This document shows positions 12,571-46,289 of a DNA stretch of 64,000 bases, piece by piece (the first letter of the stretch is position 1; every line of letters begins with the position of its first letter). Under the pieces are notes generated by a model that saw nothing but the letters and a program-made list of their open reading frames with translations, did no database searches and had not been told where the DNA came from. Source of the stretch: Candidatus Omnitrophota bacterium (GTDB lineage Bacteria > Omnitrophota > Gorgyraeia > 1-14-0-20-64-10); assembly GCA_016201735.1 (NCBI GenBank), contig JACQCH010000040.1:18822-82821 (forward strand), given 5' to 3'. The translations under genes were made by a program, and so were the position numbers.

Positions 12571-12572
12571 CC

Positions 12573-18722: not shown

Positions 18723-18725
18723 ATA

Positions 18726-27814: not shown

Positions 27815-28646
27815 ACCGTTTCTGGTTGTTTTTGTCTACCATGATGTCTCGGAGAAGCCCAGCCCCTTCAACCGGCGGTTCGGATTGAACGTGCCGCCGC
27901 GGCTGTTCTCTCGGCAGATGGATATGATCCGGGAACTGTTCCATCTGGTCGACCCGGCCCAACTACGCCGTGGAAGGTTCCCCACGCCGGCGGCATTGAT
28001 CACGTTCGATGATGGGAACTCGAGTTACTTTAAAACGGCCCTTCCCATCCTGAAAGAAAGGGAGATTCCCTCCCTGTCGTTTCTGAACCTGGGTCCGATC
28101 CGCGGGGAGATCTGCTGGTCGGGATTGGCCTCTTACCTTCAAACCGAAGAGCCGGCGTTTCGATCCTCTGATGGGGACCCATCACCGGATGCCTTCTGCC
28201 GGTTCACCCAGGAGGAAGTGGCCCGCTACCTGGACTCGGTGGACCAGGCCAAACTCTTTGAACGGGTCCGGGCTTTTCGAGGTCTCATGGCGACAGAGGC
28301 GGAACTGGCGGCGGCGGCCGATGAACCGTTGGTCGGTCTGGGAAATCATCTGTACAATCATTACAACGCCACCCTGCTGGGAGATCGGCTCCGAAAGGAA
28401 TATCGGGTGAATCAAGAGGTTTTGGACGCCCATCCCCGCGGGTTTCGGTTTTTCAGCTTTCCCTTCAGCCGGATGGATCGCCGGGCGATCCGGATGATCC
28501 GTGAGGAGGGAGCCGACGCGATCTTCTCGGGAAGGGGTTTTGCCAATCTCCCCGGTCAGGAGCGGGTTTATTCCCGAATGGAGATGAAGGAGTCCATAAT
28601 GGAACCGAAAGAGTTGATGGCTCATGTCCTTAGAAATCTCATCTGA
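27795..28646 (+). CDS. Polysaccharide deacetylase (NodB homology / CE4) family protein
   Basis: ATG 27795 after an AAAGGGAG. 'FVYHDVSE...', 'ITFDDGNSS' and 'HLYNH' are NodB-domain-like motifs. The long 5' extension of ORF 27426 is rejected. Confidence 0.5.
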   Translation: MFRWMVKPFLVVFVYHDVSEKPSPFNRRFGLNVPPRLFSRQMDMIRELFHLVDPAQLRRGRFPTPAALITFDDGNSSYFKTALPILKEREIPSLSFLNLGPIRGEICWSGLASYLQTEEPAFRSSDGDPSPDAFCRFTQEEVARYLDSVDQAKLFERVRAFRGLMATEAELAAAADEPLVGLGNHLYNHYNATLLGDRLRKEYRVNQEVLDAHPRGFRFFSFPFSRMDRRAIRMIREEGADAIFSGRGFANLPGQERVYSRMEMKESIMEPKELMAHVLRNLI

Positions 28647-30243
28647 AGAGCAGGCCGTTCTTCCGTTGAAGGAAGAGGTCCATGCCCGGTGGATCGACCG
28701 ATACCGGGAGTTCGCCGATCTGGCGGACCGGATTATTCGGGAAAACCCCCAACGGGCGGTCCTGGCCATTCCGCTGCTTCGTCCAAGACATTGGCCTCCT
28801 CCCAACCAGTTGAAGGTGCTGGATCAATGGGTCCGCGGCGAGGTGAGAATTCCATCCCTGCGGAGCTTGCTCAAGGAGTGGCTCTGGAGTTTGGCCTTTG
28901 CCACTCGAGATACGGTCAGCCTCCTTTTGGCTCAATGGATCACTTGGCCTTTCTTCAGCAGGATGAAAAAAAGGCCGGTGGATCTGTTGATCAAATCGTG
29001 GGGATTCGACTGCCGCAGCTTGGGAGGAGCCGACTTTTACTTTGGAACACTGACGGATCAGCTCGGGGACAGGGGCTTGCGCACCCTGCTTTTGATCGGA
29101 GTCGGATTGGGAAGGTTCGATCCCAATTTCGGTCTGGCGGTCGCGGTCTTTCGAAAGAGCCGCTTCGGGGCTATTCCGGAGTCGGTGCTGATCCCCTGGT
29201 GGGCTCCTTGGAACGTCGCCTTCCAACAGCTGTCTGCCGGGATCGCACTGCGCCGGAGGGCGAATGAGGCCGCCGACCCGAAGATGCAAATCCTTTTGGC
29301 GGCGGCGTGTCGGAACGCCGTTCAGCCGGGTGCCCTGCGGAGCCATCTTTCATTTTATTGGAGCCGCCGGGCGGTCCGCCGATGGAAGCCTAAGGTGTTT
29401 ATGTCTCTCTATGAGGGACAGCCCTGGGAACAGATGGCTTGGGCTGGAGTGAAGGCGTCGGATCCGGACTGTGTGACGGTCGGCTTCCAGCACACCGTCG
29501 TGCTGCCCCATTCCTTGGCCGTTCTTTCTCCCCCTTTGAATTCTCGAGACCCTTCCGCCCCTGAGGTGGTCCTCTGTTTGGGAGAAGCCACTCGAAGGAT
29601 GCTCCAACCCGGCCATGCCCGGAAGGGAACCCGTCTGGTTCTCTTCGGCTCTTTTCGGAGGAGCTCCGGATCATGGGATGAGAACTCTCTGCCCAACCCC
29701 GGGCGCCGGACCGTTCTGGTGTTGCCTGAAGGGATCCCCGAAGAAGTGAAGATCCTGTTCCACTTCGCCACTCGATGCGCCGCGGCCCTGCCCGATGTCC
29801 GGTTCCTGTTCCGATGTCATCCGTTCTTGCCGTTCGATTTAGTCCGTCCCTATCTGGAGATCGTGCCGGAGGATTTTCCAAACATCGAGATTTCTCGGGA
29901 ACCAGCGATTTTAAACGATTTCAAACGGGCCTCGGCGATCCTGTATCGGGGCTCTTCGGCGGTGTTGTATGGTATCCTGGAAGGGCTTAAACCGATCTAC
30001 CTGGATTTAGGAGACGGCCCCGAGGTGGATCCCCTGTTTGAGATGGGCCAGTGGAGAGAGAGGGCCGGTTCGGTCCAGCAGATGGAAGAGGTTCTTCAGC
30101 GGTACGAGGAAGCTTCTTCAGAGGATCTCACCCGGTCTTGGCAGGCGGCGTATGCTTACGTGAACAGCTATTCCCAGCCGGTGGACGAGGGATCCATTGA
30201 CCGATTCCTTCAGGCCCTCGATGAAGCCCGCAGGGGCTCCTAA
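28624..30243 (+). CDS. Hypothetical protein with TagF/KpsS-like GT-B C-terminal features
   Basis: 539 aa. C-terminus 'FRCHPF...AILYRGSSAVLYGILEGLKPIYL' resembles the CDP-glycerol glycerophosphotransferase / capsule-biosynthesis GT-B C-terminal domain. Weak call. Confidence 0.4.
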   Translation: MSLEISSEEQAVLPLKEEVHARWIDRYREFADLADRIIRENPQRAVLAIPLLRPRHWPPPNQLKVLDQWVRGEVRIPSLRSLLKEWLWSLAFATRDTVSLLLAQWITWPFFSRMKKRPVDLLIKSWGFDCRSLGGADFYFGTLTDQLGDRGLRTLLLIGVGLGRFDPNFGLAVAVFRKSRFGAIPESVLIPWWAPWNVAFQQLSAGIALRRRANEAADPKMQILLAAACRNAVQPGALRSHLSFYWSRRAVRRWKPKVFMSLYEGQPWEQMAWAGVKASDPDCVTVGFQHTVVLPHSLAVLSPPLNSRDPSAPEVVLCLGEATRRMLQPGHARKGTRLVLFGSFRRSSGSWDENSLPNPGRRTVLVLPEGIPEEVKILFHFATRCAAALPDVRFLFRCHPFLPFDLVRPYLEIVPEDFPNIEISREPAILNDFKRASAILYRGSSAVLYGILEGLKPIYLDLGDGPEVDPLFEMGQWRERAGSVQQMEEVLQRYEEASSEDLTRSWQAAYAYVNSYSQPVDEGSIDRFLQALDEARRGS

Positions 30244-31248
30244 GTGAATATTCTCTTATTCGGGTATGGGTACATGGGCAAGATCCGCCACGCGGTCCTG
30301 CGCCGGCATCCGGCGGTCCGGCGGGTCACCATTGTGGATCCATTCATCGATCCGAAGATGTTGGATCTCGATGGGGCCGTCCTGCCGCCGTGCGCTCCGG
30401 TTCCCTGGGAGGAGCACGACGCCGCGTTCATCTGCACTCCGAACAACGTGACGGCAGACCTCTGCGCGCAGAGCCTGAGGCGGCTGCGCCGCGTTTTCTG
30501 TGAGAAGCCGCCGGGCCGAAACTGGGAAGAGTTTTGTCAGATTGACGAGGCGGCCCGGTCCGTCCCGGATCACGTGCTGGCGTTCGGCTTCAATCACCGG
30601 CTGCACCCGTCGATTCAGGCCGCTTTGGCCCTTTTAGGGGAGGGGGGTTTAGGGGAGGTCTTGTACGTTAAGGGGACCTATGGGAAGTCGGGCGGCAGCC
30701 AATATCGAGAGAGCTGGCGGAACAACCGGGAGGTCTCCGGGGGGGGAATTCTTTTGGATCAGGGAATCCACATGCTGGACCTGTTCCAACTTTTCCTCGG
30801 ACCCTTGACGGTAGTGGAAGCCGTTTTGACCGATTCATTCTGGAAGTGCGGGGTGGAGGACAACGCCTTCGTGCTGTTGAAGGGCGGCAGGGGGCAGCCG
30901 GCCTTCCTCCATTCCTCCGCCACGCTCTGGAAGCACACGTTCCGAATTGAGATCGGCTGCGAGAATGGATACCTCAAGGCCAGCGGATTCCTCTCCAAGA
31001 CCGGAAGCTACGGGAGGGAGCAGTTGGTCATCGGCAAACGCCAGTTCGAAGATGAAGCATTCTCTCTGGGAAATCCCCGGGAGGAGATCATCCATTTCGA
31101 CCGGGACGAGTCCTGGGACAAGGAGGTTCATGAATTTTTGGCGGCGGTTCAAGAAGGGCGGCCTCCCCATCACGGGTCTTTGGAAGAGGCCCGGCAGGTG
31201 ATGAAACTGGTTCATGACATTTACGCGATGACACCCGTCACTCAATAA
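30244..31248 (+). CDS. Gfo/Idh/MocA family oxidoreductase
   Basis: GTG start. 'ILLFGYGYMGKIRHAVL' Rossmann motif, 'FCEKPPG' (the EKP motif of the family) and a C-terminal alpha/beta domain. Confidence 0.65.
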   Translation: MNILLFGYGYMGKIRHAVLRRHPAVRRVTIVDPFIDPKMLDLDGAVLPPCAPVPWEEHDAAFICTPNNVTADLCAQSLRRLRRVFCEKPPGRNWEEFCQIDEAARSVPDHVLAFGFNHRLHPSIQAALALLGEGGLGEVLYVKGTYGKSGGSQYRESWRNNREVSGGGILLDQGIHMLDLFQLFLGPLTVVEAVLTDSFWKCGVEDNAFVLLKGGRGQPAFLHSSATLWKHTFRIEIGCENGYLKASGFLSKTGSYGREQLVIGKRQFEDEAFSLGNPREEIIHFDRDESWDKEVHEFLAAVQEGRPPHHGSLEEARQVMKLVHDIYAMTPVTQ

Positions 31249-31257
31249 GGAGTTCGC

Positions 31258-32217
31258 ATGCGGTCTGTTGAAACCAACAGCTCATTTCCTTTATCGGCGG
31301 TAAAGCCGCTGGAGGAGCTTGCCAGCTACCGGGAATTCTGCCTTTCACAAACCCTCAAGGCGCTTCAACAAGGCCGGCGAAAACGGCAGATCTCTCCGGT
31401 CACCCATCAGCCGCTTGAGCCGTGCGGAGAGACGGCGGGGCTGGAGTACGGCCGCTGTTCCCAAACCGGATCTTTCTTCCTGATGACCCTTCCGCCCGCG
31501 TCCGCCTGGACACAGCTTCTTGAAGAGGTGAACCGGTTTCGGCATTCCCCGGAGGCCTTCCACTTTACCCATGCCCGCTCCCGGTCGGATAGGGTGTATC
31601 TGCCGAAGCTGGAGTGGATTCAGGAGACCTTGAGGTTTCAGCGGCTGGTTTCTCCCGCCGTTTTAGAGGTGGCTCCTTCTCCAAGCGATCTGATGCCGCT
31701 GTTGAAAGAGAGTGGCCTCTTCTCCAAGGGGTTTACCTCCTCAGAACAAGATGCTTCCAAATCTTCTTTGGATCAGGAGCCGGTGGAGGTGGCTCTTCTG
31801 CTGGAGGCGCTGGACCGAAGCGACGATCCGGAGGCCCTGCTGGAGGCAGTTCGAAAAAGGATGGTGACGGGAGGGCTCCTGTTCGTGACCGCCCTGGTGG
31901 TTTCCGGATTTGACATGGCGGTCTTGGGGATGAACAACCTCTACTGGGTTCCACCGGATCGGGCCAATGGGTTCAGCCTGAAGGGGTTGACCCAGTTCCT
32001 GACGCGGTTCGGCTTTAACCTGCTGGAGGTTTCCACGCCGGGCGTCCTCGATCTGGAGATCGTCCAAGCCCATCGACAGAGGGATCCCTCGATCCCTCTG
32101 TCTGTATTCGAGCGGCAGCTTTTGGAATCCGACGAACAGACTCGCATGGGGTTTCAATCCTTTCTTCAGCAGCAGGGTTTGAGTTCTTTTGCCCGTCTGG
32201 TTGCGAGGAAGGCCTAA
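31258..32217 (+). CDS. Hypothetical protein, possibly a divergent class I methyltransferase
   Basis: Perfect AAGGAG RBS 6 bp upstream. Weak motif-I-like 'VLEVAPSPSD' and 'LLFVTALVVSGFD'. No confident family. Confidence 0.35.
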   Translation: MRSVETNSSFPLSAVKPLEELASYREFCLSQTLKALQQGRRKRQISPVTHQPLEPCGETAGLEYGRCSQTGSFFLMTLPPASAWTQLLEEVNRFRHSPEAFHFTHARSRSDRVYLPKLEWIQETLRFQRLVSPAVLEVAPSPSDLMPLLKESGLFSKGFTSSEQDASKSSLDQEPVEVALLLEALDRSDDPEALLEAVRKRMVTGGLLFVTALVVSGFDMAVLGMNNLYWVPPDRANGFSLKGLTQFLTRFGFNLLEVSTPGVLDLEIVQAHRQRDPSIPLSVFERQLLESDEQTRMGFQSFLQQQGLSSFARLVARKA

Positions 32218-32221
32218 CGTT

Positions 32222-32851
32222 ATGGAGGGGAAGGTGAATTTTTCTTACTTGGAGCAGCACTTCAAGGAAACCGCCGAGATCGCCCATCGGTTGGATGTGG
32301 AGATTCTCGACCGAATGGTGGAGCGGCTGATCCGCCTCCGCCAGGAAGGGGGGCGGCTGTTTCTCTGCGGGGTCGGAGGATCTGCGGGGAATTGTTCCCA
32401 CGCGGTCAACGACTTCCGAAAGCTGACCGGGATCGACGCATCTACACCGGTGGATAACGTGTCGGAATTGACGGCCCGAACCAACGATGAAGGATGGGAA
32501 ACCGTGTTCGCCGAGTGGCTGAAGGTGAGCCGCGCCTGCGACAAGGACCTGCTGATGATTTTTTCCGTGGGTGGGGGAAGCCGGGAACGGAACATCAGCG
32601 CCAATCTCGTGGCGGCGATCGACGAAGCCAAACGCCGGGGGATGGCGGTGCTTGGAGTGGTTGGCAGGGATGGGGGCTATACCCGGCAGAAGGGAGACAT
32701 TGTGCTTGTCATCCCAACGGTGAATCCTCAACAGGTGACCCCCCATGCGGAAGCGTTTCAGTCCGTCGTCTGGCACGCGCTCGTGTGCGATCCTCGATTG
32801 ATGGTTCAGGAAAATAAATGGGAAGCTCTTATGGGGGAGCGTTCGAGATGA
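32222..32851 (+). CDS. gmhA: SIS-domain sedoheptulose-7-phosphate isomerase (GmhA-like)
   Basis: 'GRLFLCGVGGSAGNCSHAVNDFRKL' is the SIS/GmhA signature. 209 aa. Confidence 0.7.
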   Translation: MEGKVNFSYLEQHFKETAEIAHRLDVEILDRMVERLIRLRQEGGRLFLCGVGGSAGNCSHAVNDFRKLTGIDASTPVDNVSELTARTNDEGWETVFAEWLKVSRACDKDLLMIFSVGGGSRERNISANLVAAIDEAKRRGMAVLGVVGRDGGYTRQKGDIVLVIPTVNPQQVTPHAEAFQSVVWHALVCDPRLMVQENKWEALMGERSR

Positions 32852-33543
32852 GAGCGTTGACAGGAATCTTTTTGGACACCAGCAACATCGACGAGATTCG
32901 GAAATATCATGAGCTGGGGATTATTCGCGGCGTGACGACCAACCCGACGATTCTGGTCAAGGATGGGGCTTCCGGGTGGTCCGAGGTGGAGCGCCGATGC
33001 AAACGGATCGCGCAGGCGGTCAGCCCCCTGCCGGTCTCGGTGGAGGTGACCACCAACCATCCCGATGAGATGTTGGCCCAGGCGAAGCTGTTCTCCTCGT
33101 GGGCGGACAACATCAACGTCAAGATCACGGTTCACGGCCCGGAGGGAGGGGTGGAGAATCTGAGGATGATCCACGAATTAGAAACCAACCAGAACATCCG
33201 GATCAACGTGACGGCGATGATGTCCGCTCAACAGTGCCTGCTGGCCGCGATGGCGGGGGCGACGTACGTTTCCATCTTCGGGGGAAGGGTCAACAACATG
33301 GGGTACGATTCCCGGCAGGAGATTCGGCGCTTGAGGCAGCTCCTGGACTCCTTTAACCTGCCGGCGAAGATCATCGTCGGCTCCACACGGGAGGTGCTCA
33401 ACATCATCGAGTGGTTTGAGGCAGGCGCGGATATCGTGACCGCGGTTCCCTCACTCATTGAAGTGATGTTGGTTCATCCCTACAGCAAAGAGACAGTCCG
33501 GATGTTCCTCGAGGACGGCCGAAAGCTGCGCGCGAATGCTTGA
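32848..33543 (+). CDS. Transaldolase / fructose-6-phosphate aldolase family (Tal-MipB subfamily)
   Basis: ATGA overlap. 'IFLDTSNIDEIRKYHELGIIRGVTTNPTIL' and 'NVKIT' (Schiff-base Lys region) are typical of short transaldolases. Confidence 0.7.
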   Translation: MRALTGIFLDTSNIDEIRKYHELGIIRGVTTNPTILVKDGASGWSEVERRCKRIAQAVSPLPVSVEVTTNHPDEMLAQAKLFSSWADNINVKITVHGPEGGVENLRMIHELETNQNIRINVTAMMSAQQCLLAAMAGATYVSIFGGRVNNMGYDSRQEIRRLRQLLDSFNLPAKIIVGSTREVLNIIEWFEAGADIVTAVPSLIEVMLVHPYSKETVRMFLEDGRKLRANA

Positions 33544-34507
33544 GGCATTTCCCTGTCTAAGGCGGGAAGGGATGGGAGTTATTGACGTCGGCTCCCGGGG
33601 AGGGATCCATCCCCGCCTACGGCCGATCGCTTCGATTATTGATGTGGTCGGTTTTGAGCCTGATGCGGAGGAGGTCCGCCGCCTACAAGGGGAAGAGACC
33701 GGGCTGTTCCGATCCGTTCGGCATCTTCCTTATGCCTTGGGTCAAACCGACGGCCGTCAGACCCTTCATTTGTGCCGTTCCCGGGGGACCAGCTCCTTCT
33801 TAAAACCGAACCGCCCGTTCCTGGATCGCTTTCCGGATGCCTCCCGTTTTGATGTGGAAACGGCGCAGTCGGTAGAGGTGAAATCGCTGGATGGTTTGAT
33901 TCAAGGTTTCAGCGGCGGGTTGCCGCGCCAAATCGATTTTCTGAAGCTGGACACCCAGGGGTCGGAGTTGCTTGTCCTCAAAGGAGCGCATCAGACCTTG
34001 AGGTCGCAGGTGGTCGCTCTCGATATAGAGGTGGAGTTTGCCCCCCTCTATGAATCTCAGCCCCTCTTTCGGGATGTTGACGCATACCTGGCGGAATGCG
34101 GATTCACCCTGTTTAAATTGCGGAGGATGGAATGGGTCCGGCGCGGCTATGCCGAGCGGCCGTATCGCAGCGGTGGCCAGATCGTTTTCGGCGAGGCGGT
34201 TTATTTGAAGGACCCTCTGTCCAATGAGCAGTGGAGTCCTACTGCCCATCAGGTGGAGGCGCTAGTCCTTCTGGCGATCCTGTACGGCCAGCATGACTTT
34301 GTCAAGGAACTGATGGAACTGGCCCCGATCCAGGGCCGATGCGATGTTCCGGCGATCCGGGCGGTCCTGGAGCGAAACAGCCGCCGATCCAATTTCGAGA
34401 TGGGGACAAATCCGCTCCGACAGGCCTGGCGTTCGATGGGAACTCTCTGGGACCAATTCCGCCGCCGCTCTTCTTGGGGACGGGGGGATCCATGGGTTGG
34501 GAATTAA
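33536..34507 (+). CDS. FkbM-family SAM-dependent methyltransferase
   Basis: 'GVIDVGSRGGIHP' and 'VVGFEPD' form the FkbM motif. 323 aa. Confidence 0.55.
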   Translation: MLEAFPCLRREGMGVIDVGSRGGIHPRLRPIASIIDVVGFEPDAEEVRRLQGEETGLFRSVRHLPYALGQTDGRQTLHLCRSRGTSSFLKPNRPFLDRFPDASRFDVETAQSVEVKSLDGLIQGFSGGLPRQIDFLKLDTQGSELLVLKGAHQTLRSQVVALDIEVEFAPLYESQPLFRDVDAYLAECGFTLFKLRRMEWVRRGYAERPYRSGGQIVFGEAVYLKDPLSNEQWSPTAHQVEALVLLAILYGQHDFVKELMELAPIQGRCDVPAIRAVLERNSRRSNFEMGTNPLRQAWRSMGTLWDQFRRRSSWGRGDPWVGN

Positions 34508-34525
34508 GCAGATGAGGGGGTAAGA

Positions 34526-35323
34526 GTGGTCCAGGGAAATCATTCGTTGAAACGAAAACTGCGGGCCCGTGAGCCGGTCTTAGGGGCTTGGACCTCGTTG
34601 GCCCATCCCTCCATCACGGAGATTTTTGCCGCCTGCGGGGTGGACTTTGTCGGCATCGATATGGAGCATAGCACCATCACGCTCGAACAGGCCCAACAGG
34701 TGATGGCCGCCTCCCAGGCAGGCCAAGCGGCTTGCCTGCCGCGGGTCTCCTCTCACAATGGAGAGCAGATCCGGCGCCTCCTAGATTCCGGCGCGGATGG
34801 GATTATTGTCCCCAACGTCTCCTCGGCCAAGGAGGCGATCCCTCTTATCGAGTGGTGCAAGTATCCCCCTGTGGGCAAGCGCAGCTACGGGATCGCGCGT
34901 GCGCAGGGGTACGGCTTTCAATTTGAGGAATACACCCGGACATGGAACGAGCGCTCGGTCTTACTCCTTCAGATCGAGTCCGAGCAGGGGGCAGGCAGGA
35001 TTAACGAGCTTCTTCAATTCGACGCCGTGGATGGAGTCATGATCGGTCCCTACGATATGTCCGGTTCATTGGGAATTCCAGGCCAACTCGATCATCCTCT
35101 GATTTTAGAAGCCTGCCGGGGAGTCATCGACGCGGCCCGGCGGCACCGAAAGGCCTGCGGCACGCAGGTCGTGGACCCGACAGAGGAGAACGTGGCGGCC
35201 GCCTTTGAGGCGGGGTATACCTTTGTGGTATTGGCCTCGGACATCTTTATCCTTTGGAAATGGAGCCAAAGGATGCGGACGCTTACTGAGAACCTCAAAG
35301 CAGGGCTTCAACCCAAGACCTAA
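34526..35323 (+). CDS. HpcH/HpaI-family class II (pyruvate) aldolase
   Basis: 'VLGAWTSLAHPSITEIFAACGVDFVGIDMEHSTI' and 'DGVMIGPYDMSGSLGIPGQ' are the HpcH/HpaI/2-dehydro-3-deoxy-sugar-acid aldolase motifs. Confidence 0.7.
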   Translation: MVQGNHSLKRKLRAREPVLGAWTSLAHPSITEIFAACGVDFVGIDMEHSTITLEQAQQVMAASQAGQAACLPRVSSHNGEQIRRLLDSGADGIIVPNVSSAKEAIPLIEWCKYPPVGKRSYGIARAQGYGFQFEEYTRTWNERSVLLLQIESEQGAGRINELLQFDAVDGVMIGPYDMSGSLGIPGQLDHPLILEACRGVIDAARRHRKACGTQVVDPTEENVAAAFEAGYTFVVLASDIFILWKWSQRMRTLTENLKAGLQPKT

Positions 35324-36106
35324 ATGGCCAACAAAATTCCAATCGGAGTTGAGAAACGGTTCAATCTGCGGGGGAAGGTGGCGGCGGTGGTCGGGGGAGC
35401 AGGGTATCTGTGCTCCATGCTTGCCCGGGCCATGTGCGAGTCGGGTATGAAGGTGGTGGTCCTGGATCTGGCTCCATTTCCAAAGGGGAAAGGTTCCTCC
35501 GGTTTCAAGGATGGACCCCGCAGCCTCCCCTGCGACATCCTGGACAAGAAAGGCCTGATCCGATGCCGGGATGAAATCCTTAAAATGCATGGGCGGGTGG
35601 ACGTCTTGTTAAACGGGGCGGGAACCAATGCCCCGACCCCTTTCTCAGACATCACCCATGAGGAATTTCAGAAGATCGTAGGAGTGAATCTGTTGGGAAC
35701 CCTCTACGGATGCCAGGCCTTCGGGGAAAGCATGATCCGGCAGAAATCGGGGAGCATCATCAACTTCGCTTCCGTTTCTTCAGGGCCCCCTTTGTCAAAG
35801 GCCTTTGTCTACTCCGCGGCGAAATCCGGGGTGGTGAGTTTAACCCAGAACCTGGCCCGGGAATGGGCTCCTTTTCGGGTGCGGGTCAACGCGCTCCGGC
35901 CGGGGTTCTTTCCGACGAAGTGGAGCATGGAACATTTCATTGATCGGGATCGAAAGGCCAAGATCTTAAATCATACTCCCATGGGGCGTTTTGGCAGGCC
36001 CGAAGAGCTCATTGGCCCGGTCTTGTGGCTGGCTTCCGATGCCGCCAGTTTTGTGACCGGTTCGGTGGTGGCCGTGGACGGCGGTTTTACCGCCATGACG
36101 ATATGA
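35324..36106 (+). CDS. Short-chain dehydrogenase/reductase (SDR)
   Basis: 'KVAAVVGGAGYLCSMLA' Rossmann motif and 'YSAAKSGV' catalytic Y-x3-K. Confidence 0.65.
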   Translation: MANKIPIGVEKRFNLRGKVAAVVGGAGYLCSMLARAMCESGMKVVVLDLAPFPKGKGSSGFKDGPRSLPCDILDKKGLIRCRDEILKMHGRVDVLLNGAGTNAPTPFSDITHEEFQKIVGVNLLGTLYGCQAFGESMIRQKSGSIINFASVSSGPPLSKAFVYSAAKSGVVSLTQNLAREWAPFRVRVNALRPGFFPTKWSMEHFIDRDRKAKILNHTPMGRFGRPEELIGPVLWLASDAASFVTGSVVAVDGGFTAMTI

Positions 36107-36861
36107 CCCCCCCAAGAGACAGGCGGGTGGTGGCCGTCACAGGAGGGACTCGGGGCATTGGGCGGGCCATCTCAGAACTGTTCCTCGAGCGGGGTGACCA
36201 GGTCTGTGTCTGCGCCCGCTCTTTAGACGAGAACGATCTGCCGAAGGAGATGGCCCGCTTCTCCGTGGATGTCCGTCATCCTTCCGAGTTGGAAGGTTTT
36301 GCGCGGGCGGTGAAGAGTCGGTTTGGATCGCTGGACGTTTTTGTCAACTCCGCAGGGATATCCCAGTGGAGGCCCATTGGGGAATTGGACGAAGCCTTCG
36401 TTAAGGAAATAGTGGAAACCAACCTCTTGGGCACCCTCTGGGGATGCCGCTCGGCGGCCGGAGTGATGAAGGCGGGAGGGGCCATCGTCAACATCTCCAG
36501 CCTGGCCGGTAAAAGAGGCTCTGCCAACAACAGTGCTTACTGCGCGTCAAAATTTGCCGTCAATGGAATCACACAATCCCTGGCGAAGGAACTGGGACCC
36601 CAGGGGATCCGGGTCAACGCGGTCTGTCCCGTCTACGTCCGTACGGAAGAGCTGACAAAGGCTCTTTCGAAACCGGATTCGCCGGTGAAGGATCAGGCGG
36701 TGGAGGCGTATCTGACTTCCTTCGCCGCAACCCAAACGGCCCTTAGGCGGCTGCCGGAGGCCCTGGAGGTGGCTGGGGTAGTTTACTTTCTGGCCAGCCC
36801 CGATGCTTCCGCCGTGACCGGGCAGTGCATCAACGTGGACTGCGGGACCTTTCCCCAGTAG
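36103..36861 (+). CDS. Short-chain dehydrogenase/reductase (SDR, FabG-like)
   Basis: ATGA overlap. 'VVAVTGGTRGIGRAI' and 'YCASKFAV'. The N-terminal extension of ORF 36025 is rejected. Confidence 0.65.
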   Translation: MTPPRDRRVVAVTGGTRGIGRAISELFLERGDQVCVCARSLDENDLPKEMARFSVDVRHPSELEGFARAVKSRFGSLDVFVNSAGISQWRPIGELDEAFVKEIVETNLLGTLWGCRSAAGVMKAGGAIVNISSLAGKRGSANNSAYCASKFAVNGITQSLAKELGPQGIRVNAVCPVYVRTEELTKALSKPDSPVKDQAVEAYLTSFAATQTALRRLPEALEVAGVVYFLASPDASAVTGQCINVDCGTFPQ

Positions 36862-36868
36862 TGGAGCC

Positions 36869-37648
36869 GTGAGACCGATCCGAGTCGTGGCTGTGATCCC
36901 TGCGCGGATCAACTCCACCCGATTCCCCGGGAAACCTCTTTTGGAGGTTCAGGGGCTTCCGATGGTGGAGCATGTGCGGCGGCGGGCGCTGCTGGCCAAA
37001 GGATTTTGTTGCGTGGTCGTGGCGACCTGTGATCGGTCCATCGCAGAGGCGGTGGAACATTTTGGAGGGCAGGTGGTGATGACCTCGGCCGCCCACCCGG
37101 CTGCGACGGATCGGGTGGCGGAAGCGGCCCGGCATCTGGAGTGCACTCATGTGGTGAACGTTCAGGGGGATGAAATCCTGGTGCTCCCTTCCGATCTGGA
37201 AAAGATGCTGCGGGCGATGGAGAAGAACCCGGATCTTCCGGCTTGGAACGGAGTCGCCCCCCTTGTGGATCCTAAAGAGCTGACGGACCCTTCGGTGGTC
37301 AAATGCGCGGTCTCCCGAAGCGGCAGGATCCTGTTCTGCTCCAGGGTTTTTTCCGGAGGACGATTGGGGAATCCCTTACCGAGAACCCCGCTGCGCCGGG
37401 TCTTAGGCATCCTGGGGTACCGGAAGGAGTTCCTGGACCGGTACGGAACCCTCTCCAGGACCCCTTTGGAAACGGCTGAGTCCATTGACCAGTCCCGCAT
37501 CATCGAACATGATTTCCCCCTGCAGTCCGTGGAGTTTTCCAACGGTTATCCAGGGATCAATGAACCCCGCGAGATCGAGATGGTTCACACGGTTCTCCGG
37601 GAAGATCCGCTGCAGGAGACGGTTCTGAAGGAGGTGCTGGCCGGATGA
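36869..37648 (+). CDS. KdsB-family cytidylyltransferase (CMP-3-deoxy-2-ulosonic acid synthetase-like)
   Basis: 'RVVAVIPARINSTRFPGKPLLEVQGLPMVEHV' is near-canonical KdsB. 259 aa. Confidence 0.75.
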   Translation: MRPIRVVAVIPARINSTRFPGKPLLEVQGLPMVEHVRRRALLAKGFCCVVVATCDRSIAEAVEHFGGQVVMTSAAHPAATDRVAEAARHLECTHVVNVQGDEILVLPSDLEKMLRAMEKNPDLPAWNGVAPLVDPKELTDPSVVKCAVSRSGRILFCSRVFSGGRLGNPLPRTPLRRVLGILGYRKEFLDRYGTLSRTPLETAESIDQSRIIEHDFPLQSVEFSNGYPGINEPREIEMVHTVLREDPLQETVLKEVLAG

Positions 37649-38580
37649 AACCGAGGGTGGTGTACATCGCCCTGCAGCAGTTTTGCGAACAGGAGGGCCA
37701 TGCCCGCGAAACCTTGGAAGAAGCCGGGTTTCAGATCCTTCAGAATCAATTGGGCCGGCGGCTCCAGAGGGAGGAGATGCCGGAGATCCTTAAGGAAGCG
37801 GACGCGGTCCTGGCCGGTGTGGAACCTTACGATGCTCAACTGATTGCCGCTCTGCCCAAACTTAAATGCATCAGCCGCTGCGGCGTGGGAACCGAATCGG
37901 TGGACCTGGAGGCGGCCCGTCTCCATCGGATCGCCGTGTTGACCACTCCGGAGGAGGTGGTGGAGCCGGTGGCGCAGATGACCATCGGGATGATCCTCGC
38001 CCTGGCCAGGAACTTCCCGCAGCATCTGTCCGACGCCCGCCAGGGTCTCTGGAAGAAGCGGGTCGGATTCCTCCTTTCCGAATGGACGATCGGGATGGTG
38101 GGATTCGGTCGGATTGGGAGGGCAGTGGAACGAATTCTTCGAATCTTTGGTCCCAAGATTCGGGTGACCGATCCGAAGGCCGATCCGAGAAGCTTGCCCC
38201 CGGGCGTTGAGACCCGTGAGCTTTCCGCGCTGCTCGCGGAATCGGATCTGGTTTCCCTGCACGCCAGCCGCCGGCCGGAAGAAGGGCCTTTGCTGGGAGA
38301 GAGGGAGCTCCACCAGATGAGGCAGGGAAGTTATCTGGTCAACACCGCGCGGGGATCTCTGGTGGATGAAGCGGCGTTGGTTCGGGCGCTCGCCTCCGGG
38401 CATCTGGCGGCGGCCGCGTTGGATGTTTTCCAAACGGAGCCGGCCCAGAGCAGCCCGCTGTTTCAAATGCCGCAGGTCCTGTGCACTCCCCATGTAGGGA
38501 GTCTCACCCGGGCCTCCCGGGCGGCGATGGAGCTTAAATGCGCAAAAAACGTTGTGGAATTTTTTAATGGGTCCGCTTAG
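37645..38580 (+). CDS. D-isomer-specific 2-hydroxyacid dehydrogenase (SerA/GhrA/HprA-like)
   Basis: 'GMVGFGRIGRAVERIL' NAD-binding motif and a catalytic His region 'TPHVGSLT'. ATGA overlap. Confidence 0.75.
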   Translation: MKPRVVYIALQQFCEQEGHARETLEEAGFQILQNQLGRRLQREEMPEILKEADAVLAGVEPYDAQLIAALPKLKCISRCGVGTESVDLEAARLHRIAVLTTPEEVVEPVAQMTIGMILALARNFPQHLSDARQGLWKKRVGFLLSEWTIGMVGFGRIGRAVERILRIFGPKIRVTDPKADPRSLPPGVETRELSALLAESDLVSLHASRRPEEGPLLGERELHQMRQGSYLVNTARGSLVDEAALVRALASGHLAAAALDVFQTEPAQSSPLFQMPQVLCTPHVGSLTRASRAAMELKCAKNVVEFFNGSA

Positions 38581-39076
38581 TCTCGGCTGCGACCTGTGCC
38601 GGATCGGCGAGATGGATCGGATGCTCAAGGAGGATCCGGCCTCCACCCAGCGCCTATTTCATCCCGAGGAATGGGAATACGCCTTTTCTCGGACTCGACC
38701 GGAACAGCATCTGGCCGGTTTCTTCGCGGCCAAAGAGGCCCTGGCCAAGGCGATCCGGGAATCGACCCTGTTGGGAAAGTATCGCCAGGAAGTGATCGTC
38801 CGCCATCGAGAGGACGGCGCTCCCTACCTGGTCCTCTCCGATTCCTTGTCTGAAACCTTTTCGAATCTGGGGATGAAAATCCTGGATCTTTCCGTTTCCC
38901 ACGATGGGGACTACGCCATGGCCGCCGTCATCGTCCGGACACAGCCCCTGCAGTGCGCCAAGTGCTTGTTAAGCATAGACCATTTGAGGACCCAGCGGGT
39001 GGCGGAATGGCTGATGCCGGTAGAAACACGTGAGGGGACCCGGTTTCTTTGTCCCCCATGCCTGAGAGGTTGGTAG
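38567..39076 (+). CDS. acpS: AcpS-type 4'-phosphopantetheinyl transferase with C-terminal Cys-rich tail
   Basis: 'LGCDLCRIGEM' (Mg site) and 'FFAAKEALAKA' are AcpS motifs. A C-terminal ~45 aa extension carries 'CAKC...CPPC'. Confidence 0.55.
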   Translation: MGPLSLGCDLCRIGEMDRMLKEDPASTQRLFHPEEWEYAFSRTRPEQHLAGFFAAKEALAKAIRESTLLGKYRQEVIVRHREDGAPYLVLSDSLSETFSNLGMKILDLSVSHDGDYAMAAVIVRTQPLQCAKCLLSIDHLRTQRVAEWLMPVETREGTRFLCPPCLRGW

Positions 39077-39077
39077 G

Positions 39078-39317
39078 ATGGATCCGGCTCAAAGATTAAA
39101 AGAGACCATCTCCCGATACTGGAACCTGCCGGCGGAGCAGATCGATTGGGACATGGAATTCAACGACCGCAGGCTCGCGGCTTTCTCTTCGCTGCGGATG
39201 CTCCGTTTTTTGGCCAGCGTGGAGGAGCAGTTTCAGATCAACATCCAGGATTCGGATGCGGTCAAACGGTTCAAAGACCTCTGGATCCTTGTGGAGGGCA
39301 GATGCTCCGGCTCATAA
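39078..39317 (+). CDS. Acyl carrier protein
   Basis: 79 aa. '[24 protein letters not shown]' fits the ACP helix II pattern with Ser in the 'DSL' position. Immediately downstream of the PPTase. Confidence 0.6.
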
Positions 39318-40024
39318 AAAAGAGCGCCCATCTCCCGTTTCGTTGGGCCTTCTTTAAGAGACTCGAAGGCCGGGTTGAGATTGGAAAGGCCTGCCGGGTC
39401 CCTTTTCATAACATCCGTTTCACCGTGCGCCGCTTGGTGGTCGGCGACTACGTCCGGTTTGGGGACCGGCTGTTCCTACAGGGAAACTCCTTCGTCTTCG
39501 GGAACCACTTCTTCTGCGGACCGGATGTTCAAATCACAGGGGTGGGCGGGACCTTTGAGGTGGGCAAATTCAGCTCCTTTGGATCGGACGTCCGGTTCCT
39601 CTTGGGCAAAGGAAATCATCGGATCCACTCCCTGTCCAGTTTTCCCTTCGGTAATCTGCCTCAGTTTGATGAGCCGGGATGGAGAGAGGCCTTTGCCCAC
39701 GAAGAGGAATCGAACACCTTCTGCAAGGTGGGGAATGACGTCTGGATTGGGATCGGAAGCGTGATCCTCCCCAACGTCACCATCGGGCATGGGGCCATCG
39801 TCACCGCCGGATCGGTGGTGACCGCCGACGTGCCCCCCTACGCCGTGGTGGGGGGGAATCCGGCGCAGATTATTTGCTTTCGATTCAAACAGATTCTGAT
39901 TCAGGAGCTTTTGGAAATCTGCTGGTGGGACTGGCCGGTGGAGAAGATCCGTCGGAACAAATCGTTCTTCACCCGGAACCTGTCCACCCGAACTTCTCTG
40001 GAATCCGTGGAGATCGCCCCCTAG
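39302..40024 (+). CDS. Hexapeptide-repeat (left-handed beta-helix) acyltransferase
   Basis: Internal ATG 39302 overlaps the ACP stop. Repeats '[31 protein letters not shown]'. The ORF 39146 5' extension across the ACP gene is rejected. Confidence 0.65.
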
Positions 40025-40025
40025 G

Positions 40026-46276: not shown

Positions 46277-46289
46277 GAAGGGGCGTTTC

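What the first reader, a model, noticed from the sequence alone, without database searches (positions are those of the whole stretch)
34526..38580. HpcH-family pyruvate aldolase + KdsB-like cytidylyltransferase + redox enzymes: possible non-canonical CMP-ulosonic acid route
- KdsB-family enzymes activate 3-deoxy-2-ulosonic acids such as Kdo and Kdo8N as CMP esters.
- No KdsA, KdsD or KdsC homolog is present in the window.
- Instead, an HpcH/HpaI class II aldolase, which condenses pyruvate with an aldehyde to a 4-hydroxy-2-oxo acid, lies 1.5 kb upstream.
- Two SDRs lie between the aldolase and the cytidylyltransferase, and a D-2-hydroxyacid dehydrogenase follows.
- This suggests a pyruvate-aldol route to an unusual 2-keto-3-deoxy sugar acid, possibly reduced or oxidised by the SDRs, that is then CMP-activated.
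- Alternatively, the 2-hydroxyacid dehydrogenase supplies D-glycerate for the downstream FkbH module.
Basis: inference. Interest (0 to 1): 0.7.

Follow-up and report, generated by a model that had tools for sequence, protein, structure and literature searches.

The report
Aldolase-based CMP-sugar-acid gene cassette
A tightly packed, widely conserved set of about eleven genes in an uncultured Omnitrophica bacterium probably builds a Kdo-like acidic sugar with a pyruvate aldolase instead of the usual PEP-dependent synthase and then activates it with CMP; no such route has been described.

Summary
ORFs at 34526-38580 encode an HpcH/HpaI class II aldolase, two SDRs, a KdsB-family cytidylyltransferase and a PGDH-like 2-hydroxyacid dehydrogenase.

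The unit is larger than reported. It runs from 28624 to 38580: GT-B protein, GFO oxidoreductase, methyltransferase, GmhA-like isomerase, transaldolase, FkbM methyltransferase, aldolase, SDR, SDR, cytidylyltransferase, 2-HADH.

The order recurs in dozens of unrelated metagenomic contigs (GC 28-72%):
- Of 32 non-redundant loci found through the aldolase, 30 carry the cytidylyltransferase downstream.
- Of 27 loci with enough upstream sequence, 25 carry the isomerase.

The cytidylyltransferase keeps its CTP/Mg residues. It has lost a nine-position signature shared by eight characterized, kdsA-linked or canonical-type CMP-Kdo synthetases, including Tyr185, which contacts Kdo C5-OH, and the active-site His181.

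Plasmid-borne relatives sit in kdsA-SIS-kdsB modules. Here the aldolase, plus a HAD phosphatase in most relatives, takes the place of KdsA/KdsC.

Best reading: a Kdo-pathway analogue that makes a non-Kdo, possibly higher-carbon, CMP-activated ulosonic acid for an LPS or surface glycan. The product, the role of the 2-HADH, and whether canonical kdsA/kdsB exist elsewhere in the genome remain untested. I found no prior description.

The parts
28624..30243 (+). 539-aa protein with no Pfam or NCBIfam match. Predicted GT-B fold. Candidate transferase for the CMP-sugar, or a NeuC/PseG-like NDP-sugar hydrolase.
30274..31248 (+). GFO/IDH/MocA-family NAD(P) oxidoreductase (longest ORF starts at 30244).
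   Evidence: Pfam. Weak NCBIfam matches to inositol 2-dehydrogenase and levoglucosan dehydrogenase. Upstream in 25 of 27 loci.
31258..32217 (+). SAM-methyltransferase-like protein (weak Methyltransf_23 match).
   Evidence: Upstream in 21 of 27 loci.
32222..32851 (+). SIS_2 sugar-phosphate isomerase, distantly GmhA-like (phosphoheptose isomerase).
   Evidence: Pfam SIS_2. NCBIfam gmhA 57 bits, far below cutoff. Best PDB matches are GmhA at 53 bits; His64 is kept and Glu68 becomes Asp. Upstream in 25 of 27 loci. Overlaps the next gene by 4 bases.
32848..33543 (+). Short (subfamily-4 type) transaldolase.
   Evidence: TAL_FSA. 115-120 bits to true transaldolases (T. acidophilum, B. subtilis, T. 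maritima) against about 46 bits to FSA. Keeps Asp6, Glu60, Lys86, Asn108, Thr110, Ser130, Phe132, Arg135, Ser167 and Arg169 of TacTal. Present in 16 of 27 loci upstream and 2 downstream.
33572..34507 (+). FkbM-family methyltransferase. A variable accessory gene of the cassette.
   Evidence: Present in only about 10 of the related loci.
34526..35323 (+). HpcH/HpaI-family class II (metal-dependent) pyruvate aldolase. Proposed C-C bond-forming step, in place of KdsA or NeuB.
   Evidence: PF03328, 100.6 bits. 113-146 bits on the HpaI, GarL and RhmA equivalog models, against cutoffs of 369-441. Best PDB match GarL 1DXE. Catalytic His, Arg, Glu and Asp (GarL H50, R75, E153, D179) are kept in 77-79 of 79 cassette aldolases. 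431 relatives in metagenomes.
35324..36106 (+). SDR oxidoreductase 1, of the sugar-acid type.
   Evidence: Closest to D-mannonate oxidoreductase, gluconate 5-dehydrogenase and KduD models and to PDB gluconate 5-dehydrogenase 1VL8. A YxxxK motif is visible in the translation. Downstream of the aldolase in 27 of 32 loci.
36103..36861 (+). SDR oxidoreductase 2.
   Evidence: Downstream in 27 of 32 loci. Absent, together with SDR1, from five clade-B loci that keep aldolase-HAD-cytidylyltransferase-2HADH.
36869..37648 (+). KdsB/KpsU-family cytidylyltransferase of a distinct, aldolase-linked clade. Proposed CMP activation of the new acid sugar.
   Evidence: PF02348, 132 bits. Best PDB match KpsU 1GQ9 at 143 bits; 33-36% identity to characterized enzymes. 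R10, R15, K19, Q98, D100, R157 and R213 are kept, but the signature at positions 11/50/74/75/181/185/210/211/235 differs. Downstream of the aldolase in 30 of 32 loci.
37645..38580 (+). D-isomer 2-hydroxyacid dehydrogenase, phosphoglycerate-dehydrogenase-like. A core member whose role is unresolved.
   Evidence: Best PDB matches are M. tuberculosis PGDH at 174 bits, then glyoxylate/hydroxypyruvate reductases. Follows the cytidylyltransferase in 25 of 32 loci, including loci without SDRs and without FkbH.

Best explanation
Window 28624-38580 is one co-transcribed biosynthetic cassette for a CMP-activated 2-ulosonic (alpha-keto) sugar acid that is not Kdo. It is built on the logic of the Kdo pathway but with different enzymes.

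Proposed order of steps (all inferred from enzyme families and synteny):
1. The dedicated transaldolase and the GmhA-like isomerase supply an aldose phosphate, the role KdsD has for Kdo. A heptose 7-phosphate from sedoheptulose 7-phosphate is the simplest case. An octose 8-phosphate, as made by LmbR/LmbN in lincomycin biosynthesis, is the alternative.
2. The class II HpcH-type aldolase condenses this aldehyde with pyruvate, or possibly hydroxypyruvate, to a 4-hydroxy-2-oxo acid phosphate. This replaces PEP-dependent KdsA or NeuB.
3. A HAD phosphatase removes the terminal phosphate, as KdsC does. It is present in most relatives but absent from this window.
4. The two SDRs, the GFO oxidoreductase and the methyltransferases tailor the sugar.
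5. The KdsB-like enzyme makes the CMP ester.
6. A transferase, perhaps the conserved GT-B protein at 28624, puts the sugar into the LPS or surface glycan that the rest of the window assembles.

Shown here: gene content, conserved order, intact catalytic residues, and the changed substrate-pocket signature of the cytidylyltransferase.

Inferred: every chemical step, the chain length of the product, and the role of the 2-HADH.
For: Operon structure:
- The genes are packed with gaps of -23 to +30 bases on one strand.

Synteny found through the cytidylyltransferase:
- Homologues at 57-67% identity in groundwater, Omnitrophota and Elusimicrobiota contigs lie in the same block.

Synteny found through the aldolase:
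- Of 32 non-redundant loci with at least 6 kb downstream: cytidylyltransferase 30, SDR1 27, SDR2 27, HAD 26, 2-HADH 25.
- Of 27 loci with at least 5 kb upstream: isomerase 25, GFO 25, methyltransferase 21, GT-B protein 21, transaldolase 16.
- Locus GC ranges from 0.28 to 0.72, and aldolase pairwise identity from 41 to 94%.

Competent enzymes:
- The aldolase keeps its His/Arg/Glu/Asp catalytic set.
- The transaldolase keeps its Schiff-base Lys and phosphate-binding residues, with Phe132 rather than the Tyr of FSA.
- The cytidylyltransferase keeps R10, R15, K19, Q98, D100, R157 and R213.

Evidence that the substrate is not Kdo:
- Eight characterized, kdsA-linked or canonical-type CMP-Kdo synthetases share Y11-D50-S74-G75-H181-Y185-E210-Q211-D235; one of them, an Opitutales homologue, has Leu at position 11.
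- The two aldolase-linked clades have M/I-C-AA-I/V-L-D-Q-N (clade A, which includes the window) or M-C-RC-Q-S-D-F-D (clade B) at those positions.
- In E. coli KdsB, Y185 and Q98 hydrogen-bond the Kdo C5-OH and H181 lies in the active site (PMC12199768).

Contrast with the classical module:
- Plasmid-borne relatives at about 37% identity sit in kdsA-SIS-kdsB or kdsA-kdsB-kpsF modules. The aldolase therefore occupies KdsA's place.

Supporting chemistry and context:
- HpcH-family aldolases accept polyhydroxylated aldehydes in vitro, and hydroxypyruvate as donor (PMC7610986).
- SDR1 is closest to enzymes that act on sugar acids (gluconate 5-dehydrogenase, KduD).
- The window is an LPS/glycan locus with a WecA-like transferase, an O-antigen-ligase domain and GT9 heptosyltransferases.
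Against: - There are no biochemical data for any member.
- The cytidylyltransferase passes one NCBIfam 'CMP-Kdo synthetase' subfamily cutoff (209.5 against 193), and its best solved relative is the capsule CMP-Kdo synthetase KpsU.
- The organism evidently makes LPS (GT9 heptosyltransferases), so it needs CMP-Kdo. I could not check whether a canonical kdsB/kdsA exists elsewhere in the genome.
- Clade A, including this window, has Asn in place of the second Mg-binding Asp (D235).
- This window lacks the HAD phosphatase.
- The transaldolase is missing from roughly a third of loci.
- The proposed pathway does not explain why a PGDH-like 2-HADH is a core member.
- All known physiological roles of HpcH-family aldolases are catabolic (PMC7610986).
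Confidence: 0.5

Rival explanations
1. This is the same cassette, but the aldolase donor is hydroxypyruvate rather than pyruvate. The PGDH-like 2-HADH oxidises D-glycerate or 3-phosphoglycerate, and the HAD phosphatase removes the phosphate. The product would then be a 3-hydroxy (Ko-like) rather than a 3-deoxy ulosonic acid, which is then CMP-activated.
For: - The 2-HADH is a core member. It persists in the minimal aldolase-HAD-cytidylyltransferase-2HADH loci that lack the SDRs (L025, L036, L047, L048, L075).
- Its closest relatives are phosphoglycerate dehydrogenases and glycerate/hydroxypyruvate reductases.
- Some HpcH-family aldolases accept hydroxypyruvate as nucleophile (PMC7610986), and solved hydroxyketoacid aldolases are among the relatives.
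- Pyruvate is abundant and needs no dedicated supply enzyme.
Against: - Only 19 of 571 screened class II aldolases tolerated hydroxypyruvate (PMC7610986).
- The 2-HADH is adjacent to the cytidylyltransferase, not to the aldolase or the HAD.
- The window has no HAD gene.
- No CMP-activated 3-hydroxy ulosonic acid is known; from my own knowledge, Ko is made after transfer.
Confidence: 0.2
2. The 36869 gene is an ordinary CMP-Kdo synthetase, either housekeeping KdsB or a KpsU-like second copy. It activates normal Kdo made by kdsA elsewhere, and the neighbouring aldolase and redox genes serve other sugars of the glycan locus.
For: - The NCBIfam CMP-Kdo synthetase subfamily model is above cutoff.
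- The best PDB match is KpsU.
- Public records name its homologues CMP-Kdo synthetase.
- The window encodes LPS-core heptosyltransferases and an O-antigen ligase domain.
- In group 2 capsule loci, kpsU is also separated from kdsA (my own knowledge).
Against: - Synteny with the aldolase holds in 30 of 32 loci across GC 0.28-0.72.
- The enzyme forms a separate clade from KdsB and KpsU.
- It has lost H181, Y185, Y11, D50, S74/G75 and E210, which are invariant in the eight CMP-Kdo synthetases compared apart from one Y11L. Y185 is a Kdo C5-OH ligand.
- The equivalog models are below cutoff.
- kdsA-linked relatives keep the canonical signature.
Confidence: 0.12
3. The ulosonic acid is made without the aldolase. 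The steps would be: sedoheptulose 7-P to heptose 7-P (isomerase); oxidation at C1 to a phospho-aldonate (GFO enzyme); oxidation at C2 by the PGDH-like 2-HADH to a 2-keto acid; dephosphorylation (HAD); and CMP activation. The aldolase would have a side role such as salvage, cleavage or donor recycling.
For: - This scheme gives the GFO enzyme, the 2-HADH, the HAD, the isomerase and the transaldolase coherent roles.
- PGDH and PdxB-type enzymes oxidise phosphorylated 2-hydroxy acids (family knowledge).
- GFO-family members include aldose 1-dehydrogenases.
Against: - It leaves the most tightly linked partner of the cytidylyltransferase, the aldolase, without a role (30 of 32 loci).
- The minimal loci still keep the aldolase.
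- No lactonase is present.
- The GFO match to aldose dehydrogenases is weak.
Confidence: 0.1
4. The aldolase, SDR and 2-HADH genes are a catabolic sugar-acid module of the GarL/KduD type that lies inside a glycan locus by chance.
For: - The closest characterized aldolases (GarL, HpaI, RhmA) and SDRs (gluconate 5-dehydrogenase, KduD) are catabolic (PMC7610986).
Against: - The cassette contains no transporter, regulator, dehydratase or kinase.
- The aldolase scores are far below every equivalog cutoff.
- The order is conserved with a cytidylyltransferase and glycosyltransferases in dozens of lineages.
Confidence: 0.03

Closest known systems
Kdo pathway (KdsD/KpsF isomerase, KdsA synthase, KdsC phosphatase, KdsB/KpsU cytidylyltransferase)
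   Same: - The four-step logic is the same: sugar-phosphate isomerase, C3 + aldose-phosphate condensation, HAD phosphatase, CMP activation.
- The last enzyme belongs to the same family (PF02348; 33-36% identity to KdsB/KpsU).
- kdsA-SIS-kdsB modules on plasmids show the parallel gene arrangement.
   Different: - Condensation is by a metal-dependent HpcH-type pyruvate aldolase, not PEP-dependent KdsA. No DAHP_synth_1 gene lies in the window.
- The isomerase is GmhA-like SIS_2, not SIS+CBS.
- The cassette adds a dedicated transaldolase.
- The phosphatase in relatives is HAD-IA-like rather than KdsC-type, and the window has none.
- Four extra oxidoreductases and several methyltransferases are present.
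- The cytidylyltransferase lacks H181, Y185 and other positions invariant, or nearly so (Y11 is Leu in one), in CMP-Kdo synthetases.
Nonulosonic-acid pathways (NeuC/LegG/PseG hydrolase, NeuB-type synthase, NeuA/LegF/PseF CMP-synthetase)
   Same: - The end product is a CMP-activated alpha-keto acid sugar for surface glycans.
- A complete pathway of this kind lies in the same window at about 7.8-15.8 kb.
   Different: - The cassette has no NeuB-family synthase and no aminotransferase.
- Its cytidylyltransferase belongs to the KdsB branch, not the NeuA branch; the PseF model scores only 33 bits.
- The sugar-phosphate enzymes (transaldolase, SIS, HAD) point to a phosphorylated rather than a free-sugar route.
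LmbR/LmbN of lincomycin biosynthesis (transaldolase plus GmhA-like isomerase making octose 8-phosphate)
   Same: - A dedicated short transaldolase is paired with a GmhA-like SIS isomerase, here translationally coupled.
- In the lmb cluster this pair is followed by a phosphatase (LmbK) and a nucleotidyltransferase (LmbO). These roles are listed in PMC12945683. The reaction itself is from my own knowledge of Sasaki et al. 2012.
   Different: - I did not compare the sequences with LmbR or LmbN.
- The downstream chemistry differs: here an aldolase and a CMP ester of an acid, there a kinase and a GDP-octose.
- The context here is a surface glycan, not an antibiotic.
HpcH/HpaI, GarL and RhmA class II 2-keto-3-deoxy-acid aldolases
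   Same: - The domain and the catalytic His/Arg/Glu/Asp set are shared.
- In vitro, family members condense pyruvate or hydroxypyruvate with polyhydroxy aldehydes.
   Different: - Scores are 113-146 bits against equivalog cutoffs of 369-441.
- All 79 cassette aldolases share Tyr176 (GarL Ser178, HpaI Ala) and Gly122 (as HpaI; GarL Ser124).
- The context is anabolic glycan synthesis rather than aromatic or sugar-acid catabolism.

Membership tests
CMP-Kdo synthetase (KdsB/KpsU, EC 2.7.7.38) | CTP_transf_3 fold with the N-terminal PAR...R.PGK motif and the CTP/phosphate-binding residues R10, R15, K19, R157 and R213 (E. coli numbering) | tested here: met
   PF02348 at 132 bits. All five residues are conserved in the window protein and in both cassette clades.
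CMP-Kdo synthetase (KdsB/KpsU, EC 2.7.7.38) | Two Mg-binding aspartates: D100 and D235 in E. coli, D95 and D219 in A. aeolicus (PMC3149649, PMC12199768) | tested here: inconclusive
   D100 is kept. D235 is Asn in the window and in all 18 other clade-A enzymes, and mostly Asp in clade B. Asn could still ligate a metal.
CMP-Kdo synthetase (KdsB/KpsU, EC 2.7.7.38) | Kdo-pocket residues Q98, H181 and Y185 (Y185 and Q98 bind the Kdo C5-OH; PMC12199768) | tested here: not met
   Q98 is kept. H181 becomes Val and Y185 becomes Leu in the window (clade A: I/V and L; clade B: Q and S). All eight characterized, kdsA-linked or canonical-type enzymes keep H and Y.
CMP-Kdo synthetase (KdsB/KpsU, EC 2.7.7.38) | Score above the curated equivalog cutoffs | tested here: not met
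   TIGR00466 scores 127 against 155, and NF003948 scores 142 against 281. Only the subfamily model NF003952 passes (209.5 against 193). NF009905 scores 218 against 255.
CMP-Kdo synthetase (KdsB/KpsU, EC 2.7.7.38) | Genomic linkage to kdsA, kdsC, kdsD/kpsF or waaA | tested here: not met
   None of these lies in the 64-kb window, and the cassette loci I inspected with called genes and Pfam families show none either. The related loci were screened only with cassette proteins, so kdsA, kdsC and waaA were not searched for there. Plasmid relatives with the canonical signature are kdsA-linked. The rest of the genome could not be examined.
CMP-Kdo synthetase (KdsB/KpsU, EC 2.7.7.38) | Catalytic activity with Kdo and CTP | not testable with these tools
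   This needs an enzyme assay.
HpcH/HpaI class II aldolase (PF03328) | The domain plus the catalytic and metal residues (GarL H50, R75, E153, D179) | tested here: met
   100.6 bits. The residues are H48, R73, E151 and D177 in the window protein, kept in 77-79 of 79 cassette aldolases.
HpaI / GarL / RhmA (specific catabolic aldolases) | Equivalog-level similarity and a catabolic operon context | tested here: not met
   113-146 bits against cutoffs of 369-441. The context is a glycan-biosynthesis cassette.
Transaldolase (short, subfamily 4) | Schiff-base Lys, the catalytic Asp and Glu, phosphate-binding Arg and Ser, and Phe rather than Tyr at TacTal position 132 | tested here: met
   The alignment to 3S0C shows D6, E60, K86, N108, T110, S130, F132, R135, S167 and R169 all conserved. 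The NCBIfam equivalog cutoffs are not reached.
GmhA (sedoheptulose-7-phosphate isomerase) | Equivalog-level similarity and the catalytic/zinc residues (B. pseudomallei His64, Glu68, Gln175, His183; from my own knowledge of the structure papers) | tested here: inconclusive
   57 bits against a cutoff of 209. His64 is kept and Glu68 becomes Asp. The C-terminal residues are not reliably aligned.
Kdo biosynthetic pathway as a whole | A PEP-dependent KdsA (DAHP_synth_1) as the condensing enzyme | tested here: not met
   No such domain was found among 58 scanned ORFs of the window, nor in the cassette loci I inspected with Pfam annotation.

The most novel reading that the evidence does not exclude
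This would be the first PEP-independent, class II aldolase-based route to a CMP-activated ulosonic acid. Its carbon skeleton would be longer than Kdo or sialic acid: C10 from a heptose 7-phosphate, or C11 from an octose 8-phosphate, supplied by a dedicated transaldolase/GmhA-like pair. It would be made by Omnitrophota, Elusimicrobiota and many other uncultured lineages. It might be one genetic source of the unassigned higher-carbon CMP-ulosonic acids now being seen by mass spectrometry (bioRxiv 10.64898/2026.04.20.719630).
Probability: 0.27. Interest if true: 0.85.

Novelty: new variant of a known kind. Interest (0 to 1): 0.68.

Why it matters
To my knowledge, every known route to CMP-activated ulosonic acids (Kdo, Kdn, sialic, legionaminic and pseudaminic acids) uses a PEP-dependent KdsA- or NeuB-type synthase. 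A conserved pathway that uses a pyruvate aldolase instead would have four consequences:
- It would add a new biosynthetic logic and probably a new monosaccharide to bacterial glycobiology.
- It would give HpcH-family aldolases their first anabolic physiological role. This is useful for biocatalysis of rare keto-acid sugars.
- It would correct a systematic mis-annotation. These cytidylyltransferases are named 'CMP-Kdo synthetase' in public records, and more than a hundred homologues at 60% identity or above were listed in one search.
- It would provide a sequence signature (positions 11/50/74/75/181/185/210/211/235) that separates true KdsB from this clade.

It also makes the cell-surface chemistry of uncultured Omnitrophota testable by heterologous expression.

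Tried and rejected
**Ideas rejected**
- The 2-HADH feeding the FkbH module. FkbH is near the cassette in only 1 of 32 loci downstream and 1 of 27 upstream. The PPTase, carrier protein, hexapeptide acyltransferase and FkbH genes (38567-41867) form a separate, window-specific acylation module.
- An FSA-type aldolase reading of the TAL gene. It has Phe at the Phe/Tyr switch position and scores 120 bits against true transaldolases but 46 bits against FSA.

**Searches that found nothing**
- Literature searches for a prior description, combining HpcH, KdsB, cytidylyltransferase, ulosonic, transaldolase, 2-hydroxyacid dehydrogenase and polysaccharide terms. Subscription-only papers were not searchable.
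- tblastn of the GT-B protein against 72,556 plasmids gave no match. The cytidylyltransferase gave only canonical-type hits at 37% identity or less, so I found no cultured or plasmid example.
- Cluster look-ups to get organism names for NCBI-derived homologues returned no names.

**Searches that were limited or inconclusive**
- The genome-contig scan with the cytidylyltransferase returned only three loci, because the peptide patterns were narrow. I could not look for kdsA or kdsB elsewhere in the source MAG.
- Sequence search of the 539-aa protein against PDB found nothing. Fold searches gave only a generic GT-B assignment and could not separate a transferase from a NeuC-like hydrolase.

Full report
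**1. The observation**

- 34526-35323 is an HpcH/HpaI class II aldolase (PF03328, 100.6 bits).
- 35324-36106 and 36103-36861 are classical SDRs.
- 36869-37648 is a CTP_transf_3 cytidylyltransferase of the KdsB branch.
- 37645-38580 is a D-isomer 2-hydroxyacid dehydrogenase, closest to phosphoglycerate dehydrogenase.

The GTG start at 36869 is correct. The public gene call of 228 aa would delete the conserved CTP-binding N-terminus.

Pfam scans of 58 ORFs covering the window found no KdsA, no KdsD-type protein and no KdsC-type protein.

The window itself is identical to contigs of a Candidatus Omnitrophica MAG. It is one long + strand glycan/LPS locus containing:
- a legionaminic-acid-type cluster at about 7.8-15.8 kb;
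- many glycosyltransferases;
- a WecA-like initiating transferase, an O-antigen-ligase domain and two GT9 heptosyltransferases at the 3' end.

**2. The real unit is larger and strongly conserved**

I looked up the genomic context of homologues of the cytidylyltransferase at 57-67% identity. They occur in groundwater and other metagenomic contigs, an Omnitrophota MAG and an Elusimicrobiota MAG.

For the reciprocal test I scanned metagenomes with an alignment of cassette-type aldolases. This gave 431 relatives, of which 80 loci were fetched. I then mapped the window's proteins onto them by tblastn.

| Position relative to the aldolase | Loci examined | Gene and number of loci carrying it |
|---|---|---|
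| Downstream (at least 6 kb available) | 32 | cytidylyltransferase 30, SDR1 27, SDR2 27, HAD phosphatase 26, 2-HADH 25 |
| Upstream (at least 5 kb available) | 27 | GmhA-like isomerase 25, GFO oxidoreductase 25, methyltransferase 21, 539-aa protein 21, transaldolase 16 (plus 2 downstream) |

The usual gene order is: 539-aa protein, GFO, methyltransferase, SIS, (B12-radical-SAM), transaldolase, (FkbM), aldolase, HAD, SDR, SDR, cytidylyltransferase, 2-HADH, GT2.

The loci span GC 0.28-0.72, and aldolase identities run from 41 to 94%. This is therefore conservation across distant lineages, not one clone.

In the window the genes are separated by -23 to +30 bases. FkbH occurs near the cassette in only one locus downstream and one upstream. 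The PPTase/carrier-protein/acyltransferase/FkbH genes at 38567-41867 are thus a separate module, and the 2-HADH belongs to the cassette.

**3. The enzymes look functional, and the cytidylyltransferase is not a standard KdsB**

*Intact catalytic residues.*
- The aldolase keeps the catalytic His, Arg, Glu and Asp of GarL/HpaI in 77-79 of 79 sequences.
- The transaldolase keeps every catalytic and phosphate-binding residue of the Thermoplasma enzyme, with Phe rather than the FSA-type Tyr at position 132.
- The isomerase is a distant GmhA relative.

*Relationship to known CMP-Kdo synthetases.*
- The cytidylyltransferase is 33-36% identical to E. coli KdsB, KpsU and the Pseudomonas and Vibrio enzymes. 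KdsB and KpsU are 46% identical to each other.
- In a neighbour-joining tree, the aldolase-linked enzymes form two sister clades apart from all of these.
- It keeps R10, R15, K19, Q98, D100, R157 and R213.

*A changed substrate-pocket signature.*

| Group | n | 11 | 50 | 74/75 | 181 | 185 | 210 | 211 | 235 |
|---|---|---|---|---|---|---|---|---|---|
| Characterized, kdsA-linked or canonical-type | 8 | Y (L in one) | D | SG | H | Y | E | Q | D |
| Clade A (includes the window) | 18 + window | M/I | C | AA | I/V | L | D | Q | N |
| Clade B | 20 | M | C | RC | Q | S | D | F | D |

- The reference group is four solved structures, an Opitutales homologue and two plasmid genes that sit next to kdsA. 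The Opitutales homologue is the one with Leu at position 11.
- In E. coli KdsB, Y185 and Q98 hydrogen-bond the C5 hydroxyl of Kdo, H181 is an active-site residue, and D100 and D235 hold the second magnesium (PMC12199768; PMC3149649).
- The pocket has therefore been remodelled while the nucleotide chemistry is kept. This is what one expects for a different sugar acid.

**4. The contrast that suggests the mechanism**

The nearest relatives in cultured organisms are on plasmids at about 37% identity. They lie in kdsA-SIS-kdsB (Streptomyces) or kdsA-kdsB-kpsF (a Pseudomonas capsule locus) modules.

The cassette has the same outline with different parts:
- an isomerase, here GmhA-like and paired with a dedicated transaldolase;
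- a condensing enzyme, here a pyruvate aldolase;
- a phosphatase, here HAD-IA-like and present in 26 of 32 relatives;
- the cytidylyltransferase.

I therefore read it as a Kdo-pathway analogue. A sugar phosphate from the transaldolase/isomerase pair is condensed with pyruvate by the aldolase. The product is dephosphorylated, tailored by the SDRs, the GFO enzyme and the methyltransferases, CMP-activated, and transferred to the glycan.

Three points bear on this reading:
- HpcH-family aldolases accept polyhydroxy aldehydes in vitro (PMC7610986).
- SDR1 resembles enzymes that act on sugar acids, such as gluconate 5-dehydrogenase and KduD.
- The transaldolase/GmhA-like pairing recalls LmbR/LmbN, which make octose 8-phosphate for lincomycin. 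That reaction is from my own knowledge; the roles are listed in PMC12945683. I made no sequence comparison with LmbR or LmbN.

If the acceptor is a heptose or octose phosphate, the product would be a C10 or C11 acid. The transaldolase is dispensable in about a third of loci, which fits sedoheptulose 7-phosphate from central metabolism as the usual precursor. All of these steps are inferred.

**5. What does not fit, and the rivals**

*The 2-HADH.* The PGDH-like 2-HADH is a core member. It persists in five loci that lack both SDRs and keep only aldolase-HAD-cytidylyltransferase-2HADH, yet the basic scheme gives it no job.
- One attractive variant is that it supplies hydroxypyruvate, or its phosphate, as the aldolase donor. 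That would give a 3-hydroxy, Ko-like acid.
- A second rival bypasses the aldolase altogether: aldose-phosphate oxidation by GFO, then 2-oxidation by the 2-HADH.

*The ordinary reading.* The gene could simply be CMP-Kdo synthetase.
- In favour: one NCBIfam subfamily cutoff is passed, KpsU is the best structure match, and the organism clearly makes LPS.
- Against: the synteny and the signature data.
- It can only be excluded by examining the whole genome or by assay.

*Other loose ends.*
- Clade A carries Asn at the second metal ligand.
- The window has no HAD gene.
- The 539-aa protein is a confident GT-B fold (pLDDT 93). The fold searches cannot say whether it is the transferase for the new sugar or a NeuC/PseG-like hydrolase. 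Some homologues are fused to HAD-IIIA or GT2 domains.

**6. Novelty**

Four full-text searches found no description of this gene combination. The known physiological roles of HpcH aldolases are catabolic. Public records name the cytidylyltransferase homologues 'CMP-Kdo synthetase'.

[quoted passage not shown] Those compounds carry N-acetyl groups and may be unrelated, but they show that such sugars exist.

I rate this a new variant of a known kind of pathway. It is well supported as a conserved, distinct cassette and moderately supported as to mechanism, and its product is unknown.

Noticed in passing
window 7766-15808 and 17817-20653: A complete legionaminic-acid-type nonulosonic acid cluster. 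It comprises a NeuA-like CTP_transf_3 enzyme, an SDR, NeuB, a NeuC-type 2-epimerase, a PglD-like acetyltransferase, a CBS-nucleotidyltransferase, a 4,6-dehydratase and a DegT aminotransferase. HisF/HisH-like amidotransferase genes and three ORFs with no family match follow. The locus therefore encodes two different CMP-sugar-acid pathways.
   Followed up: partly
window 38567-43083: A separate acylation module: AcpS-type PPTase, a 79-aa carrier protein (PP-binding), a hexapeptide acyltransferase and FkbH (glyceryl-loading). A MaoC-dehydratase/SDR fusion follows at 41839-43083, the only minus-strand gene seen. It suggests glycerate-derived O-acylation of the glycan. It co-occurs with the cassette in at most 1 of the related loci in each direction.
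   Followed up: partly
window 36869-37648: The public gene call for the cytidylyltransferase (228 aa, start near 36962) cuts off the N-terminal IPAR...GK nucleotide-binding motif. Homologues and the alignment support the GTG at 36869.
   Followed up: yes
window 28624-30243; proteins P0124, P0129, P0155, P0161, P0172, P0162, P0174, P0183, P0182: The 539-aa GT-B protein belongs to an unannotated family with no Pfam or NCBIfam match (231 representatives at E<1e-30). Its members are sometimes fused to HAD-IIIA phosphatase, GT2 or polysaccharide-deacetylase domains. One homologue is labelled Thermoleophilia, a monoderm lineage.
   Followed up: partly
window 44894-47282; L002 6976-10578; L005 12610-15050: A PMT_2-type GT-C glycosyltransferase and a TIG/DUF4330 protein lie downstream of the cassette in this window. 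They also lie downstream in several distant loci. This hints that the glycan may decorate a TIG-domain surface protein.
   Followed up: no
window 1544-2143 and 6118-7209: An APS kinase and a sulfotransferase-like gene sit at the 5' end of the locus, suggesting a sulfated glycan. An aldehyde dehydrogenase (3998-5506) and an IspD/MobA-like nucleotidyltransferase (5493-6206) lie between them.
   Followed up: no
window 2079-4097 and 50567-52408: Two AsnB-type glutamine amidotransferases lie in one glycan locus. AsnB homologues also follow the cassette in L004 and L005.
   Followed up: no
window 57210-63506: Four LPS-assembly genes: a WecA-like GT4 phosphoglycosyl transferase fused to a CoA_binding_3/PglD_N domain, a Wzy_C (O-antigen ligase) domain fused to a GT4 glycosyltransferase, and two GT9 heptosyltransferases. 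They mark this as an LPS core/O-antigen region.
   Followed up: no
L003 2574-4136; also L012, L017, L020, L050, L069, L079: A B12-binding radical-SAM enzyme of the C-methyltransferase type is inserted in the cassette in several relatives but not in the window. It could C-methylate, and so extend the carbon count of, the sugar in those lineages.
   Followed up: no
L092 7545-9720 (Streptomyces sp. NBC_00963 plasmid): A Gram-positive Streptomyces plasmid carries a compact kdsA-SIS-kdsB module with the full canonical Kdo-binding signature, although the host has no LPS.
   Followed up: partly
window 47606-50563: A 985-aa protein with two GT1 (GT-B) glycosyltransferase matches and a C-terminal DUF218 domain.
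   Followed up: no
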